Shown here: one piece after another, positions 3,576-64,000 of the stretch
Layout: every line of letters starts with the position of its first letter
Numbering within the stretch: position 1 is the first letter of the stretch
Assembly: GCF_009914755.1 (NCBI RefSeq)
Contig: NC_060941.1
Origin: the human T2T-CHM13v2.0 reference genome, Homo sapiens
Strand: one strand, 5' to 3'
DNA: 64,000 nucleotides
The notes under the pieces: generated by a model
What the model was told of the DNA's origin: nothing
Database searches by the model: none
Seen by the model: only the letters and a program-made list of their open reading frames with translations
Position numbers and translations under genes: made by a program

Positions 3576-3635
3576 CAGGTCGGTCCTGAGCCACACCTCA
3601 ATGTCGTCCATGACAGATGGCTGCGCAACGGGGAT
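3576..3635 (-). CDS. TOM1L2: TOM1L2 exon 13 (60 nt, IPVAQPSVMDDIEVWLRTDL; myosin VI-binding IEVWL motif), symmetric phase 0-0
   Basis: catAG acceptor, GTGAGA donor; IEVWL corresponds to TOM1 IEQWL. Confidence 0.96.
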
Positions 3636-5267
3636 CTATGGAGGCGGCAAGCAGCGGGCCAGGCAGCCCCCACACAGCCAGCGAGGGGAGACAGAACACC
3701 GGAACAAAGGAAATCATCAACAGCAACCCCAAATAAAACCAAAATGTACACAGAGCAAAAAAACACAATTGGCACAGCACACAGGGGCAACACAGGGCAG
3801 CCACGTGTGAGATGGCAGGTGAGGAAAGCAATGAGGTGCAAATGATAAGAAGCAGGCTCCCGGCAGGGCCGGCGGTAAGGAAGGTGGCTGTACGCGTTCT
3901 TGAAATGGAGAACTTTTTGACTATGAGTGTCCACTCTCACATTGCGGGGCCTCTCAGCCCGGGGCTGCAAAACACCTTCTAACTTCAGGAAGGCGCTGCC
4001 ACGCAGGCTGATTTTGAACTCAGCCACTATGACAGTCCGCTGTCAAGCCCAACCCAGGGAAGGCCAAGTGACAGCCTGCCCAGAGCGGGGTACAGGTGCT
4101 CAGAGGGCAGGGCAGCACCAGCCCCGGGGGGATGCAGGGGGTCTGTTTGCTCCGCTGAAGAGATTTTGAAATGCGTCCTGGTGCATTTCTGAGTGGAGAG
4201 GGGAACTGGAGGAGGTGCGTGCTCCGCTGGGCTGGGTGTGGCCTGGTAGACAGAGGCAGGCACATTTTACCATCAACAGAAACACAGCAAAAACGAGGGC
4301 TCTGATGACAAAGGGGACTATGGGGCTTTAGTCTTCTTTGTGTCTCTTTAGGGGAAATTCATGAAGCAGCCCTGAAAGCAACAGCTCCCTTTAGTCTCGT
4401 CCTTTCTTCCCTGTGTTCAATGGCTGGCTGTGCTTCAGGAGTCAAAGAAACCAAGTTCAGCTGAGCACTGGGGCGCAGCAGCCAGAGCCAGGGAGGTGAC
4501 AGCTTCCAGGCATACTAAGGTGTACCACGGGGTTGCCTGAGCAGTCACCTTGCTTGGGCCCCTGTGCCAAGCACCTCAGGGACAGAGACTCTGAAAAATG
4601 CACATGGCTAAAAAGGTTTAAGTTGCCATCAAATATGACATGATAAGAAGCTCCCTAGAAGCCATGTTAATGGAATGTTGGCTCCCAGCCTAGAGAAATG
4701 AGGTGATGACCCTTAATCACCTCCTCACCTACCCTGGCTCTGGGAGGTACCCTTCCGGGGCTCACTTGCAAGACCCCTATTTCTATTACAAAAATGCCAG
4801 CTCTGTCTATAGCTGGCTTCACCCAATGCCATGATCTAGGGTAAGACTAAAGTAAAAATAAGCAGTAAAAGGAATGCATACCCCAGTGTCTATCAAATGT
4901 AAAAAATAACACGACCTTCACAAAGAAAAAGAACAAAGAACACATATCACCAGCAGTGATGTGACAACTCCAGTCCTGGGGGTTGACACCTGCTGCTGAT
5001 GGTGGGGGAGGGTGGTTTGGGGTCCCAGGTAGAGTCCAGCACTCTGAGCAGGTATCTACGATGCCACCAGAGCTCTTCACTCCCTCAGTGAGCTCAGCTG
5101 GCCCCTTGCTCTGAGGAATGTGCTCTGTGTCCTAACTTCGGACCCAATGTGGGAAGCCCACAAGAGCACTTTCAGAAAGGCCCAAGCCAGTCACTGATCA
5201 GATTAGGAAGAGTCTGTGTTGCTCATTATTTCTTTGACTTACTGGGGAGTTAAGAATGTTGAATTGA

Positions 5268-5699
<432 letters not shown>

Positions 5700-8605: not shown

Positions 8606-9570
8606 CTATGGGAAATAAGGCAAAGCAATTAATATTTGTTGTAAAGAAAAAAAAAAAAACAAACTGCAGTCAGTCAGGCAAGACACCAGGTTAGCTGTTA
8701 GTTAGGTTTGTTTCTGGGAAGTTAGAGACTGGAGCTCTACGTGGGACCTGGCAGTGGCGAGGCAGTCTGTGTGGGCAGAGACAGGCACCACCACCAGCTG
8801 CCAAGGCCACCCTCAGGGGAGTTTGTGTGGGCAGTATCCTTTTTTGCAGGATTAATAGGCACAAGGGCATGTGGGCTGGATCTTCCCAATGAATGGACAT
8901 GGTTTCCAGAAGCCCTGCTGCAAAGGCCCCTGACATGTGGGCCAGAGGCCAGCCTGTCCCTGAAGAAGCAAATGAGAGGCCTGGGCCAGCACATCTCTCT
9001 AAGAATGGGCTTGGGGTCTAGTGGAGGAACTGCCTTCTCACGCAGAGCAGCAGTATGCTGCTACTATGAGAGGTGGCAGGAGACCTGCCCAGGCTGACAG
9101 CAGAGCTGTGCAGAGGGCACCAGCCCAAGCTGGGTGGCAGGCAGATGCCCCTTGCTCCCACGGCTCTGGGTGATCCTGCATGGCCCAAGTTCCTACTCAC
9201 TGGTCACGCTTTGCTCAAGCAGGTGGACCCTGTGCTGCTTGCAGTCTAGGACCTGCTGGCCTTTCCTCTGGCCACAGCCTAGCATAGCACACTATGGGCA
9301 GTTATGTATTCCTCTCACCCCACCCCACCTGGAGGGAGAGGCACATGTTTGCACTGCTTTCATCATCTTTCCTTCTCTGCATTCTCTCCAGCTCAGGCTC
9401 CATCACATGTACCACAGCTTTGGGCTCTGCTAGAGGTGAAATGGTCATCCCAAGACATACAGCCTGAGATGAGCTGACCCTCTCTCCATGCACCAGGCTC
9501 AGGCCACCTGAACAGACAAGGCAGGAGAGACCCTTGCAGGTCTGTGGGCCAGGAAAGCTCTGCTACATGA

Positions 9571-9936
<366 letters not shown>

Positions 9937-10452
9937 TGTGTATTCTTCAAGAGGTTTCAAATCATTTTGACGGACTTAGTGGATATAAGCAACTATATTA
10001 TAAAAATCTGTCAAGCCTAGGACTGCCAAATTCACAGGCACTGGGCTACAGAGGGCTTCCCTGACTGGTCAGATGCTTTGAGTCTGTTCCCTTAGAATTG
10101 TTCCCTCCCAAGCAAAAGCCACAGTAACTTGTGCTCATCCTGGAAAAGTGAATACTGCTCGGAGCTCCGGAGACAGTAAAAGGAAGGAAAGGACCCTCTC
10201 CTCATCCCTGCTAATGTCCCAGACTCTTAAGGCCTGGGGACAGGGAGGTATTTTTGGGACTGGGAATCTGTGGCTTACAGAGATTATGCAAAAATAGGAG
10301 GGGAAATTTGGCACCCCTGCCAGAAAGAAAGCGTGTGGCCTTGTACTGTCTGATTCACAAAGGCTCGGCAGGTCACAAGAGGAAGACATGAGCTGTTACA
10401 CAGGTAGGGGCTGGGGTGGACAGCAGGCTTGGCTCGGCTGGTGACTCCTCAC

Positions 10453-10539
10453 CATTCCTTGGGTTATAAGCCAGCTGTCTATGGGCTCCAGGTCAGACTC
10501 CCCACCTCTACCTCTCTTCTGGGCCGAGGACAGAAAAGT
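10453..10539 (-). CDS. TOM1L2: Alternative in-frame TOM1L2 cassette exon (87 nt, TFLSSAQKRGRGGESDLEPIDSWLITQGM); 66-nt form if the CAG acceptor at 10519-10520 is used
   Basis: Pyrimidine tract with 71-nt AG-free zone, ATG|GTGAGG donor, phase 0-0, no stop, peptide resembles exon 13. Confidence 0.72.
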
Positions 10540-10691
10540 CTCAGAAAGAAAAGTCACAGCAAGACCCATGAGAAAGAAGTCAATAGCACATATTGTGGAA
10601 ACAGAAAAGTCACTCTTCAGACGTGATCCTTTGCCACGTAAGGAAATGTGATGCCCTGCTCCCAACCTCCACCCCAGCACGTCCCCCTTAC

Positions 10692-10695
10692 CTGC
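10692..10695 (-). other. Candidate 4-nt microexon (GCAG) or recursive splice site
   Basis: tactaaacttttcttcttttttccAG-GCAG-GTAAGG on the minus strand. Confidence 0.5.
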
Positions 10696-10999
10696 CTGGA
10701 AAAAAGAAGAAAAGTTTAGTAACCAAGAATCCCAACAGGATAACACATACTCATGCCAACTACTCCCGTGCCCTTGGAAAATCTCCAGGAGATCACAGAA
10801 GGTTGACCAGAGCCGCTTCTCTCAATTACGGCTATCAGGGTTGGGAGGGGGTCAACTTTTCAAAGAACCAGCTTTTACAAAAGCAATTCTACTTTTTTCT
10901 TTTTCCTACATTTTTTTTTTTTCTCTTTTCTAGTGGCATGTGTATTCTTTTTCTAAACTCTTGAATACTAAATTTAGGTGTATTATTGCCTTTTAAAAT

Positions 11000-11684
<685 letters not shown>

Positions 11685-11759
11685 CTGGGATGACCTTTTC
11701 TTGACTGACTTGGTTGGATTTGATTTGTAGAGGTGCGGCTACACGATTTTCTCCCATTC

Positions 11760-12060
11760 ATTTTATTTTATTTATTTTTGAGACGGAGTTTCACTCTTCT
11801 TGCCCAGGCCCGAGTGCAATGGCATGATGTCGGCTCACTGCAACGTCCGCCTTTGGGTTCAAGCGATTCTCCTACCCCAGCCTCCTGAGTAGCTGGGATT
11901 ACAGGCATGTGCCACCATGCCCAGCTAATTTTGTATTTTTAGTAGAGATGGGGTTTCTCCATGTTGGTCAGGCTGGTCTCGAACTTCCGACCTCACGTGA
12001 TCCGCCCGCCTCGGCCTCCCAAAGTGCTGAGATTACAGGCATGAGCCACTGTGCCCAGCC
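11760..12060 (-). mobile_element. AluS (Sp-like)
   Basis: Alu consensus reverse complement. Confidence 0.94.
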
Positions 12061-12284
12061 TTCCCCTTTTTTATTGTGTTCTTAATTTCTCCCTTGGCCT
12101 CGTTTTCATTTCGAGGTCAGCATGGCTTGGGATGGGACAAGGTAACCTGAAATGCTGCAGGTGGGCAAGAATATGTGTAGACACACACAGACACACACAG
12201 CCCACATGCTCTGCTGCCCTGTATCGCTAAGGCTGTGGCCATGGCATTGCCCCATGGAGCAGCAAACATGAAAAGCAATCTGAT

Positions 12285-12573
12285 GGCCGGGCATGGTGGC
12301 TCACATCTGTAATCCCGGCACTTTGGGAGGCCAAGACGGGCGGAGTGCCTGAGGTCAGGAGTTCGAGACCGACCTGGCCAATATAGTGAAACCCTGTCTC
12401 TAGTAAAAACACAAAAATTAGCCGGCTGTGGTGGTGGGCACCTGTAATACCAGCTACTCAGGAGGCTGAGGCAGGACAATCGCTTGAACCTGGGAGAGGA
12501 AAGCTGCAGTGAGCCAAGATCGCGCCACTGCACCCCAACCTGGGCGCCAGAGCGAGACTCCATCTCAAAAAAA
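12285..12573 (+). mobile_element. AluS with TSD AAAGCAATCTG
   Basis: Alu consensus; flanking direct repeat. Confidence 0.94.
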
Positions 12574-14161: not shown

Positions 14162-14237
14162 CCCTTCTGAACTCTGTTTTCGATTGTCTAGTGCAGAAGC
14201 AAGTCCTCCGACAGCCTGAGGATCCTCATAGGTTACC
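14162..14237 (-). CDS. TOM1L2: TOM1L2 exon 12 (76 nt, VTYEDPQAVGGLASALDNRKQSSEG)
   Basis: tccAG acceptor, GTAGGT donor, phase 2-0. Confidence 0.97.
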
Positions 14238-18981: not shown

Positions 18982-19105
18982 CTAAGCCTGCAAGCTGGGA
19001 GGAGAGGGAAGATGGGGGCGCTGTGTTCCCCACCATTGGGCTCACCACGGCTGGAGACCCTGGCCCCAGGTCTATTAAGTTGTCTTCGGTTACTTCATTC
19101 AGTAC
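18982..19105 (-). CDS. TOM1L2: TOM1L2 exon 10 (124 nt, VLNEVTEDNLIDLGPGSP...; clathrin-box-like NLIDL)
   Basis: gacAG acceptor, GTGAGT donor, phase 0-1. Confidence 0.97.
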
Positions 19106-63567: not shown

Positions 63568-64000
63568 TGATGGTTGGGGAGGTAGATCATTTGGCTGTTT
63601 TCTTCTCCATTCTCACCAAAAGGATGTTGCTGAATGCAAAATGCTAAAACCAGTCCTCTTTTGCCTTCTGGTGTTGGCTGCTTCTGAAGTCACTATATTT
63701 AACATCAAAGTGTAGAAAGCGGCAGCCAAAAAGCCAAGCCGCTGGATTGCGAGGCTCCTCCAAACAGGGCTGCCTTAGGTTTCAGAGAACATAGGAGGGT
63801 GGGTGGGCAGAAAAACCATGCTCAGAGCCAGCACTATCACTGCTGTCAGCGTCAAGGCTTCAGGGCATCCTGGCCTGGGTCCTACCCCAGGCGAGAGAAA
63901 ATGCCATGGCAACGGCATCAGGATGCTATGCTGCTCTTGCACTGAAGATTTAATGGGAGCCGTATCTGATTACCCGAGCTCAGGCCTGCCCTGCCCTGTC

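What the first reader, a model, noticed from the sequence alone, without database searches (positions are those of the whole stretch)
10686..10721. Strong acceptor, GCAG, strong donor: 4-nt microexon or recursive splice site
The minus strand reads TACTAAAC-TTTTCTTCTTTTTTCC-AG|GCAG|GTAAGG: a near-consensus branch site about 21 nt upstream, an unbroken pyrimidine tract, then a donor 4 nt later. As a microexon it shifts frame. With exon 14 it gives SSEG-AEG* (stop 29 nt before the last junction, predicted to escape NMD). With exon 13 it gives ADPRCAAICHGRH* (59 nt before, borderline). With the 87-nt exon it gives ADFSVLGPEER*. If the second AG is the acceptor it is a zero-length AG|GT ratchet point. 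Standard aligners would miss a 4-nt exon or call it an insertion.
Basis: partly seen in the sequence, partly recalled or inferred. Interest (0 to 1): 0.78.

Follow-up and report, generated by a model that had tools for sequence, protein, structure and literature searches.

The report
Strong unused-looking splice-site pair in TOM1L2 intron
A very strong splice acceptor sits four bases before a strong splice donor deep in a human TOM1L2 intron, but such pairs are as common genome-wide as chance predicts and nothing available shows that this one is used.

Summary
It reads TACTAAAC, then a 16-nt unbroken pyrimidine tract, then AG|GCAG|GTAAGG. The three translations and the stop-to-junction distances (29, 59 and 152 nt) all reproduce.

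Within the window the site is exceptional. By a crude matrix its acceptor ranks 2 of 5141 AGs and its donor 5 of 3454 GTs. No composite this good appeared in any of 60 shuffles.

Across the whole genome the architecture is not enriched. Y12-AG-N4-GTAAG occurs 464 times against 523 for a reversed-pattern control. The stricter Y16-AG-NN-AG-GTAAG occurs 10 times against 10. Chance therefore accounts for one such site.

The site is missing from the supplied RefSeq exon table. It is also missing from a published catalogue of 36,870 conserved intronic AGGT sites, which lists four TOM1L2 sites, all in intron 1.

RNA data and cross-species alignments were not available, so use of the site cannot be tested here.

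Best reading (0.58): a chance-born latent splice-site pair that is used at most at low, stochastic levels.

Not excluded: a recursive site that feeds the weak GAG acceptor of the 87-nt alternative exon 152 nt downstream, or a frame-shifting 4-nt microexon.

The parts
10714..10721 (-). Branch-site-like TACTAAAC; likely branch A at 10716
   Evidence: Read. The A is 20 nt from the first AG and 24 nt from the second. That it matches 6 of 7 positions of the yeast-type consensus TACTAAC is recalled, not computed.
10698..10713 (-). Unbroken 16-nt pyrimidine tract TTTTCTTCTTTTTTCC
   Evidence: No AG lies between the branch A and the first AG. It contains TCTT/CTTCT words; reading these as PTB-type motifs is recalled.
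10696..10697 (-). First acceptor AG (cCAG|G)
   Evidence: Crude matrix score 12.57, rank 2 of 5141 sense-strand AGs. This is above every annotated TOM1L2 acceptor in the window.
10692..10695 (-). GCAG: the putative 4-nt exon. Its last two bases are the second acceptor AG, which forms AG|GT.
   Evidence: As an acceptor the second AG scores 10.09, rank 8 of 5141.
10686..10691 (-). Donor GTAAGG (CAG|GTAAGG)
   Evidence: Crude matrix score 7.40, rank 5 of 3454 sense GTs. The U1 5'-end duplex is -11.5 kcal/mol, rank 9 of 3454.
10626..10685 (-). G-run-rich stretch just after the donor
   Evidence: It holds 4 GGG in 60 nt, and 2.5% of 60-nt tiles of the sense strand reach this. Reading G-runs as intronic splicing enhancers is recalled knowledge.
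10540..10691 (-). 152-nt stretch that would be a short intron between the candidate donor and the GAG acceptor of the 87-nt exon
   Evidence: One search gives length 152, GC 0.48, and yUnAy words 29, 40 and 99 nt from its 3' end. Its use as an intron is inferred, not shown.
10453..10539 (-). Annotated alternative 87-nt exon (in frame). Weak acceptor ctgag|A; donor ATG|GTGAGG.
   Evidence: The hub's RefSeq table lists it. Acceptor rank 553 of 5141, donor rank 24 of 3454. The in-frame insertion is shown.
14162..14237 (-). Exon 12, the upstream exon. It ends ...GAAGGG at phase 0; donor GGG|GTAGGT.
   Evidence: Donor rank 144 of 3454.
3576..3635 (-). Exon 13, the normal partner of exon 12 across the 10,526-nt intron

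Best explanation
This is a latent (cryptic) composite splice site. A near-ideal 3' splice site (branch site, 16-nt pyrimidine tract, CAG) happens to lie four bases before a strong 5' splice site. It sits in unique, non-repeat sequence of the 10.5-kb intron 12 of TOM1L2.

It most likely arose by chance and has no dedicated function.

Inferred behaviour. U2AF/U2 and U1 can each bind, but they cannot both sit comfortably on a 4-nt 'exon', so the pair is poorly defined as an exon. If the acceptor is used at all, this happens at a low, stochastic level. The products are then either re-spliced from the adjacent donor or degraded as frame-shifted, PTC-bearing mRNA: second AG leaves no trace, first AG leaves +GCAG.

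Shown: the sequence anatomy, its local rank, its genome-wide background rate, and its frame consequences. Inferred: factor binding, steric exclusion, low usage, and lack of conservation.
For: - Genome-wide, Y12-AG-N4-GTAAG occurs 464 times (236+228) against 523 (265+258) for the reversed-pattern control. Y16-AG-NN-AG-GTAAG occurs 10 times against 10. Sites of this build are therefore no commoner than composition alone gives. The window shuffles predict about the same rate, 0.01 per 64 kb.
- For comparison, the classical contiguous recursive motif Y12-N-CAG-GTAAG is enriched, 177 against 121. This site does not match it.
- The hub's RefSeq table (17 transcripts) lists only 10453-10539 as an extra exon in this intron.
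- Table S1 of Zhang et al. 2018 holds 36,870 AGGT sites in introns of at least 5 kb, with 3' splice-site strength at least 5 and PhastCons at least 0.5. It lists 4 TOM1L2 sites, all in the 64.7-kb intron 1. No row lies between the RAI1 rows and those.
- A 4-nt exon shifts the frame in all three splice contexts.
- Exons of 51 nt or less tend to be skipped, possibly through steric hindrance (passage of Li et al. 2015).
- No TOM1L2 entry was found in the supplements searched: Hoppe 2023 (3 files), Kelly 2015 (2 files, 1 not searched), Li 2015 (5 files, 1 not searched) and MicroExonator mouse (7 files).
- Kelly et al. 2015 favour stochastic splicing at any site with acceptor properties (passage). 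This fits occasional use without function.
Against: - Locally the site is extreme. The acceptor ranks 2 of 5141 and the donor 5 of 3454, above all annotated acceptors and all but one annotated donor of the gene in the window. The composite score is 19.98, against 14.68 for the next independent one. None of 60 shuffles reached it.
- The context looks like real splicing signals. The branch site sits at -20, no AG intervenes, G-runs follow the donor (top 2.5% of tiles), and a short 152-nt interval leads to an annotated alternative exon that has a weak GAG acceptor.
- The region is single-copy, so it is not a repeat by-product.
- The conservation argument is indirect. I could not compute MaxEntScan, so the absence from Table S1 could reflect their strength filter or an annotated-site filter rather than PhastCons.
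- The negative supplement searches are weak. Li et al. dropped candidates under 6 nt. The mouse tables may not carry gene symbols. Three supplement files could not be searched or were cut.
Confidence: 0.58

Rival explanations
1. A working recursive (stepping-stone) splice site. Exon 12 is first joined to the second AG (10693-10692), a zero-length exon, which removes the first 3.5 kb of the intron. The rebuilt donor GGG|GTAAGG then splices in one of two ways. It can go to exon 13, which leaves no trace. Or it can cross the short, G-run-rich 152-nt interval to the weak GAG acceptor of the 87-nt exon. The site would then help decide whether that exon is included.
For: - The AG|GT sits behind a strong tract and branch site. 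The second AG ranks 8 of 5141 as an acceptor.
- The rebuilt donor scores 4.04 against 2.71 for exon 12's own donor. Its U1 duplex is -9.7 against -10.0 kcal/mol.
- A downstream donor at 10452 could define an 'RS exon' of 239-243 nt, as in the vertebrate model described (passages).
- The 87-nt exon's own acceptor is poor, rank 553.
- The intron, at 10,526 nt, passes the 5-kb threshold of Zhang 2018.
Against: - The first AG lies closer to the branch site and scores higher (12.57 against 10.09), so it should usually win. That gives +4 nt rather than zero.
- The site is absent from the conserved-AGGT Table S1 and from the Hoppe 2023 supplements.
- No paper holds both 'TOM1L2' and 'recursive splic'.
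- The build is not enriched genome-wide.
- High-confidence vertebrate recursive sites lie in introns of hundreds of kb (Table 1).
Confidence: 0.2
2. A true 4-nt microexon, GCAG, spliced into a share of mature TOM1L2 mRNA. It would probably be joined first to the 87-nt exon across the 152-nt intron. The result is truncated or NMD-targeted transcripts, that is, a poison microexon.
For: - The first AG is the best non-repeat acceptor in the window and keeps the full CAG|GTAAGG donor.
- Removing the 152-nt interval first would give a 91-nt exon with strong sites (inference). That a comparable route is known for a 6-nt troponin T mini-exon is recalled.
- Aligners lose sensitivity below 8-10 nt, so annotation could have missed it.
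Against: - It shifts the frame in every context, whereas microexons are mostly multiples of three and conserved.
- There is no TGC between the branch site and the AG. That neural microexons depend on such a motif is recalled.
- It is not in the RefSeq table.
- No Tom1l2 entry appears in the 7 MicroExonator supplement files.
- The four 'TOM1L2' + 'microexon' papers gave one listing, which is unrelated.
- AG-GCAG-GT occurs 3 times in this intron. A random 4-nt insert has a 0.148 chance of a spurious AG..GT match here.
Confidence: 0.07
3. A non-catalytic regulatory element. The tract and donor would act as a sink or decoy for U2AF, PTB-type proteins or U1, tuning use of the 87-nt exon 152 nt downstream without being spliced themselves.
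For: - The site lies close to an alternative exon with a weak acceptor.
- The tract holds TCTT/CTTCT words.
- U1 pairing is strong.
- That decoy splice sites are a known kind of element is recalled.
Against: - No binding data are available.
- There is no sign of conservation.
- The local RNA is not structured: z = +1.20, and 180 of 200 shuffles fold at least as well.
- The idea is hard to tell apart from no function at all.
Confidence: 0.1

Closest known systems
Vertebrate recursive splice sites (YAG|GT with an 'RS exon'; Sibley et al. 2015 as described in PMC5126111, and Zhang et al. 2018, PMC6110456)
   Same: - The site has an AG|GT junction behind a pyrimidine tract and branch site.
- A 5' splice site is rebuilt after ligation to the upstream exon.
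- A downstream donor could define an RS exon.
   Different: - Here the tract is followed by two AGs 4 nt apart, so the favoured first AG leaves 4 nt.
- The site does not match the contiguous motif Y8-N-CAG-GTRAG.
- The intron is 10.5 kb, not hundreds of kb.
- It is not in the conserved catalogue.
- No usage data exist.
Microexons (3-15 nt, up to 30 or 51 nt; PMC4317164, PMC7821500, review PMC13149111)
   Same: Very short sequence flanked by canonical AG and GT with strong signals, and easily missed by aligners.
   Different: - It has 4 nt, is not a multiple of three, and gives a premature stop in all contexts.
- No conservation or inclusion evidence is available.
- No TGC lies upstream of the AG (the criterion itself is recalled).
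Pseudo-exon acting as NMD exon and as zero-length exon (Grellscheid and Smith 2006), and dual-specificity splice sites (Zhang et al. 2007). Both were seen only as titles in the reference lists of PMC5126111 and PMC4482092; the papers are not held.
   Same: An intronic element whose acceptor and donor can give either an NMD-prone insertion or traceless re-splicing, and an AG|GT that could serve as either kind of site.
   Different: Those cases were shown by experiment. Here only the sequence is known, and I could not read those papers to compare details.
Stochastic use of intronic acceptor-like sites (Kelly et al. 2015, PMC4482092)
   Same: A deep-intronic site with strong acceptor properties, where low-level joining to the upstream exon is expected without dedicated function (passage).
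   Different: No TOM1L2 entry appears in the 2 supplement files that could be searched; 1 file was not searched.

Membership tests
Recursive splice site (vertebrate) | AG immediately followed by GT (AGGT), 3' and 5' splice-site motifs juxtaposed | tested here: met
   gcAG|GTaagg at 10693-10690 on the minus strand.
Recursive splice site (vertebrate) | Strong 3' splice site (tract, branch site). Zhang 2018 require MaxEntScan of at least 5. | tested here: inconclusive
   The crude recalled matrix gives 10.09 for the second AG (rank 8 of 5141) and 12.57 for the first AG (rank 2). MaxEntScan itself could not be run. The purines AGG separate the tract from the second CAG, so the contiguous motif fails.
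Recursive splice site (vertebrate) | A usable 5' splice site is rebuilt after joining to the upstream exon | tested here: met
   GGG|GTAAGG scores 4.04 against 2.71 for exon 12's native donor. U1 duplex -9.7 against -10.0 kcal/mol.
Recursive splice site (vertebrate) | Long host intron | tested here: inconclusive
   The intron is 10,526 nt. That is above the 5-kb cut-off of Zhang 2018. It is far below the 172-875 kb of the sawtooth-supported sites (Table 1).
Recursive splice site (vertebrate) | Evolutionary conservation of the site | tested here: inconclusive
   No alignment of other species was available. Indirectly, the site is absent from Table S1 of Zhang 2018 (PhastCons at least 0.5), which lists 4 TOM1L2 sites, all in intron 1. 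The absence could also come from their strength or annotation filters.
Recursive splice site (vertebrate) | Splicing intermediates: exon-to-site junction reads, lariats, sawtooth read density | not testable with these tools
   No RNA data are held. There is no TOM1L2 entry in the Hoppe 2023 supplements.
Microexon | Very short sequence flanked by canonical AG and GT with good splice signals | tested here: met
Microexon | Observed inclusion in transcripts | not testable with these tools
   It is not in the hub's RefSeq table. There is no Tom1l2 entry in the MicroExonator supplements (7 files). Li 2015 dropped candidates under 6 nt, so its silence says nothing.
Microexon | Usually frame-preserving (a multiple of three) and conserved | tested here: not met
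   It has 4 nt and gives a premature stop in all three contexts. The rule is as stated. It is a tendency, not an absolute criterion. Conservation was not tested.
Dual-specificity splice site | The same AG|GT is used as an acceptor in some transcripts and as a donor in others | not testable with these tools
   The motif is present. Usage is unknown.

The most novel reading that the evidence does not exclude
The site is a short-intron recursive 'stepping stone' that controls the 87-nt alternative exon. Exon 12 is first spliced to the strong acceptor at 10696/10692. The adjacent strong donor then removes a 152-nt, G-run-rich mini-intron, which is how the exon's very weak GAG acceptor gets used.

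The choice between the two AGs, 4 nt apart, would then decide the outcome. The second AG gives the in-frame 87-nt isoform. The first AG gives a +4 poison isoform reading ADFSVLGPEER*, with the stop 152 nt before the last junction. That would make the site a built-in switch between productive and unproductive splicing in a 10-kb intron.
Probability: 0.1. Interest if true: 0.55.

Novelty: new member of a known kind. Interest (0 to 1): 0.2.

Why it matters
If the site were used, it would add a frame-shifting 4-nt exon or a recursive site in a short intron to TOM1L2. It would also give a mechanism for including an alternative exon that has a GAG acceptor. And it would illustrate what standard aligners and annotation miss.

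As it stands, the main value is as a calibration. A site that looks outstanding inside one 64-kb window belongs to a class that is no commoner in the genome than a composition control. Motif strength alone should therefore not be read as function.

Tried and rejected
- **Open reading frame.** The stretch 10453-10695 (243 nt) is open in the exon-12 frame. This suggested a longer coding exon. But 18 of 420 stop-free runs in this intron are at least 81 codons long (longest 220), so it is not evidence.
- **RNA structure.** Folding 10620-10780 gives z = +1.20, and 180 of 200 shuffles fold at least as well.
- **Known RNA families.** Rfam on 9000-12500 gives 23 matches at E up to 1, all below gathering score. 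Most are SRP-like or miRNA-like hits on Alu-type repeats beside the region, and none overlaps the site.
- **Repeat origin.** The 36-mer and the 501-nt surroundings are single-copy in the genome. Inside the window only low-complexity matches appear.
- **U1 protection against premature polyadenylation.** The nearest downstream AATAAA words are about 1 kb away, at 9652 and 9644, next to an Alu. This gives no specific support.
- **87-nt exon as a duplicate of exon 13.** The peptide similarity score is 25, and 4.85% of 2000 shuffles reach it. That is too weak.
- **Papers not held.** Sibley 2015, Irimia 2014 and Grellscheid and Smith 2006 could not be read, so their site lists and details remain unseen.
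- **Literature searches that found nothing on this site.**
  - 'TOM1L2' + 'recursive splic': 0 papers.
  - 'TOM1L2' + 'microexon': 4 papers, 1 listed, unrelated.
  - 'TOM1L2' + cryptic/poison exon terms: none of the 25 listed papers contained TOM1L2.
  - 'TOM1L2' + 'alternative splicing' + 'isoform': 32 papers, 25 listed, none about this intron judging by title or abstract start.

Full report
**Observation**

On the minus strand, which is the sense strand of TOM1L2, the window reads ...ggTTACTAAAC TTTTCTTCTTTTTTCC AG GCAG GTAAGGggg.... The coordinates are:
- TACTAAAC at 10721-10714;
- an unbroken 16-nt pyrimidine tract at 10713-10698;
- the first AG at 10697-10696;
- GCAG at 10695-10692, whose last two bases are a second AG;
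- GTAAGG at 10691-10686.

The likely branch A (10716) lies 20 nt before the first AG and 24 nt before the second. No AG intervenes.

The site lies in the 10,526-nt intron between exon 12 (14162-14237) and exon 13 (3576-3635). It is 3,466 nt below exon 12's donor and 152 nt above the acceptor of the annotated alternative 87-nt exon at 10453-10539.

I rebuilt the coding sequence from the annotated exons. Only one frame is open, with 1 stop, the terminal one. Exon 12 ends at a codon boundary.

- with exon 14, SSEG-AEG*, the stop ending 29 nt before the last junction;
- with exon 13, ADPRCAAICHGRH*, 59 nt;
- with the 87-nt exon, ADFSVLGPEER*, 152 nt.

Without GCAG the 87-nt exon is in frame.

**Signal strength within the window**

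I scored sites with crude position matrices recalled from memory. They are used only for ranking inside the window and are not MaxEntScan.
- The first AG is the second-best acceptor of 5141 sense-strand AGs. The only better one is the poly-T of a masked repeat at 5545.
- The second AG ranks 8th.
- The donor ranks 5th of 3454 GTs.

Both signals beat every annotated TOM1L2 acceptor in the window and all but one annotated donor. Pairing with the U1 5' end is -11.5 kcal/mol, rank 9 of 3454.

The sum of acceptor and donor scores, for pairs 0-12 nt apart, is 19.98. The next independent pair scores 14.68. None of 60 dinucleotide shuffles of the strand reached 19.98 (mean maximum 12.51, sd 1.73, largest 17.39). 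The 60 nt after the donor hold 4 GGG, which 2.5% of tiles reach.

**Is it more than chance?**

Locally yes. Genome-wide no.

The window's own assembly (3.1 Gb) could be searched with patterns:

| Pattern | Matches | Reversed-pattern control |
|---|---|---|
| Y12-AG-N4-GTAAG | 464 (236+228) | 523 (265+258) |
| Y16-AG-NN-AG-GTAAG | 10 | 10 |
| Y12-N-CAG-GTAAG (classical recursive motif) | 177 | 121 |

The 464 matches agree with the rate from window shuffles, 0.01 per 64 kb. This site is one of the 10 matches to the stricter form. The tool warns that its counts may be lower bounds.

The classical contiguous recursive motif is moderately enriched, so the method can see selection where it exists. 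The present site does not match that motif, because AGG separates the tract from the second CAG.

A scan of many windows is therefore expected to turn up sites like this one by chance. The patterns were also chosen after seeing it.

**What else is there**

- The 36-mer and the surrounding 501 nt are single-copy in the genome.
- Within the window they match only low-complexity runs.
- Rfam finds only sub-threshold hits, mostly SRP-like or miRNA-like matches on the flanking Alu-type repeats (9656-9935, 11011-11683, 11778-12059, 12286-12500). Nothing overlaps the site.
- The local RNA is not unusually structured (z = +1.20).
- The 243-nt stretch from the first AG to the 87-nt exon's donor is open in frame, but long open runs are common in this intron (18 of 420 are at least 81 codons). 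I do not count this as evidence.

**Evidence on use and conservation**

No RNA reads and no other vertebrate genomes are available here, so the decisive tests could not be run. The indirect evidence is as follows.

- *Annotation.* The hub's RefSeq table (17 transcripts) has no exon at the site.
- *Zhang et al. 2018 (PMC6110456; passages and parts of supplement 1 read).* They listed all AGGT sites in introns of at least 5 kb that are not annotated splice sites, have a 3' splice-site MaxEnt score of at least 5, and have PhastCons of at least 0.5. That gave 36,870 sites. The table is sorted by position. It holds 4 TOM1L2 rows, all in the 64.7-kb intron 1. Nothing lies between the last RAI1 row and those rows. 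So this AGGT failed one of their filters. Given the tract, the conservation filter is the most likely one. I could not compute MaxEntScan, and the stored file is cut, though only after the TOM1L2 rows.
- *Hoppe et al. 2023.* Lariat-supported sites; no TOM1L2 in 3 supplement files.
- *Kelly et al. 2015.* None in 2 files; 1 file not searchable.
- *Li et al. 2015.* None in 5 files, 1 not searchable. They discarded candidates under 6 nt according to the 2026 review, so this is uninformative.
- *MicroExonator, mouse.* No Tom1l2 in 7 files. I did not check whether the tables carry gene symbols.
- *Full-text searches.* No paper links TOM1L2 to recursive splicing. None links it to a microexon of its own.

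**Mechanism**

The anatomy allows three products once exon 12's donor pairs with this acceptor.

- *First AG.* It is nearer the branch site and scores higher. It leaves GCAG with an intact CAG|GTAAGG donor. The result is +4 nt and a premature stop.
- *Second AG.* It leaves nothing and rebuilds GGG|GTAAGG. That scores 4.04 against 2.71 for exon 12's own donor, with a similar U1 duplex. This is the recursive case.
- *Donor at 10452.* Either acceptor could also pair with this donor to define a 239-243-nt exon.

From recall, two AGs this close compete, with the proximal one favoured.

Simultaneous recognition of an acceptor and a donor 4 nt apart is expected to be hindered. Exons of 51 nt or less tend to be skipped, possibly through steric hindrance. 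A 4-nt exon would therefore need ordered splicing. For example, the 152-nt interval could be removed first, giving a 91-nt exon.

All of this is inference from sequence.

**Verdict**

The interpretation cannot be decided here.

I put most weight (0.58) on a latent composite site that arose by chance and is used at most at low, stochastic levels. That reading is in line with the view that any site with acceptor properties is occasionally spliced.

The remaining readings are:
- a working recursive or stepping-stone site, 0.20;
- a non-catalytic decoy, 0.10;
- a true 4-nt microexon, 0.07.

If real, it would be a new member of known kinds (recursive sites, microexons), not a new kind. Interest is low (0.2) unless RNA data show use.

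AG-GCAG-GT occurs three times in this intron (13921, 10697, 7373), though only this copy has a tract and a good donor. By the MicroExonator formula, a random 4-nt insert has a 0.148 chance of a spurious AG..GT match in an intron of this length.

Noticed in passing
window 10540-10541 and 10453-10539 (minus strand): The annotated alternative 87-nt exon uses a GAG acceptor (ctgag|ACTTTT), which ranks only 553 of 5141 AGs by the crude matrix. Its donor ATG|GTGAGG ranks 24 of 3454. How such a weak acceptor is used is unexplained.
   Followed up: partly
window 18982-19011 (minus strand), 3' end of exon 10: Inside exon 10 a pyrimidine-rich stretch and a CAG lie 6 nt before the exon's own donor (cttccctctcctcccagcttgcag|GCTTAG|gtgagt). 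This is the second-best independent acceptor+donor composite in the window, at 14.68. The exon ends in TAG|GT, the YAG-ending form that Hoppe 2023 discuss as a distal exonic recursive site.
   Followed up: no
window 10453-10539 versus 3576-3635: The peptide of the 87-nt exon (…SDLEPIDSWLIT…) weakly resembles that of exon 13 (…SVMDDIEVWLRT…). The local score is 25, and 4.85% of 2000 shuffles reach it. This could be an old exon duplication or chance.
   Followed up: partly
window 5541-5568 (minus strand): The top-scoring acceptor of the window is a 22-nt poly-T followed by AG|ACAGAG, inside a masked repeat (5265-5585). From recall, this looks like the antisense-Alu form known for exonisation.
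   Followed up: no
window 60632, 29397 and 35763 (minus strand): Deep-intronic donors score as well as or better than the candidate's: TATCAG|gtaagt, TGCCAG|gtaagt and TGAGAG|gtaagt. None has a strong acceptor within 12 nt upstream.
   Followed up: no
window 9656-9935, 11011-11683, 11778-12059 (minus strand); 12286-12500 (plus strand): Sub-threshold Metazoa_SRP, mir-1268, mir-3135 and mir-1285 Rfam hits mark Alu-type repeats. They bracket a unique stretch of about 1 kb that holds both the candidate site and the 87-nt exon.
   Followed up: partly
outside the window, TOM1L2 intron 1 (hg19 chr17:17810845-17875575): Table S1 of Zhang et al. 2018 lists four conserved putative recursive AGGT sites in TOM1L2 intron 1 (hg19 17847791, 17830351, 17830094, 17822684). 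By offset from exon 2 all lie beyond window position 64000.
   Followed up: no
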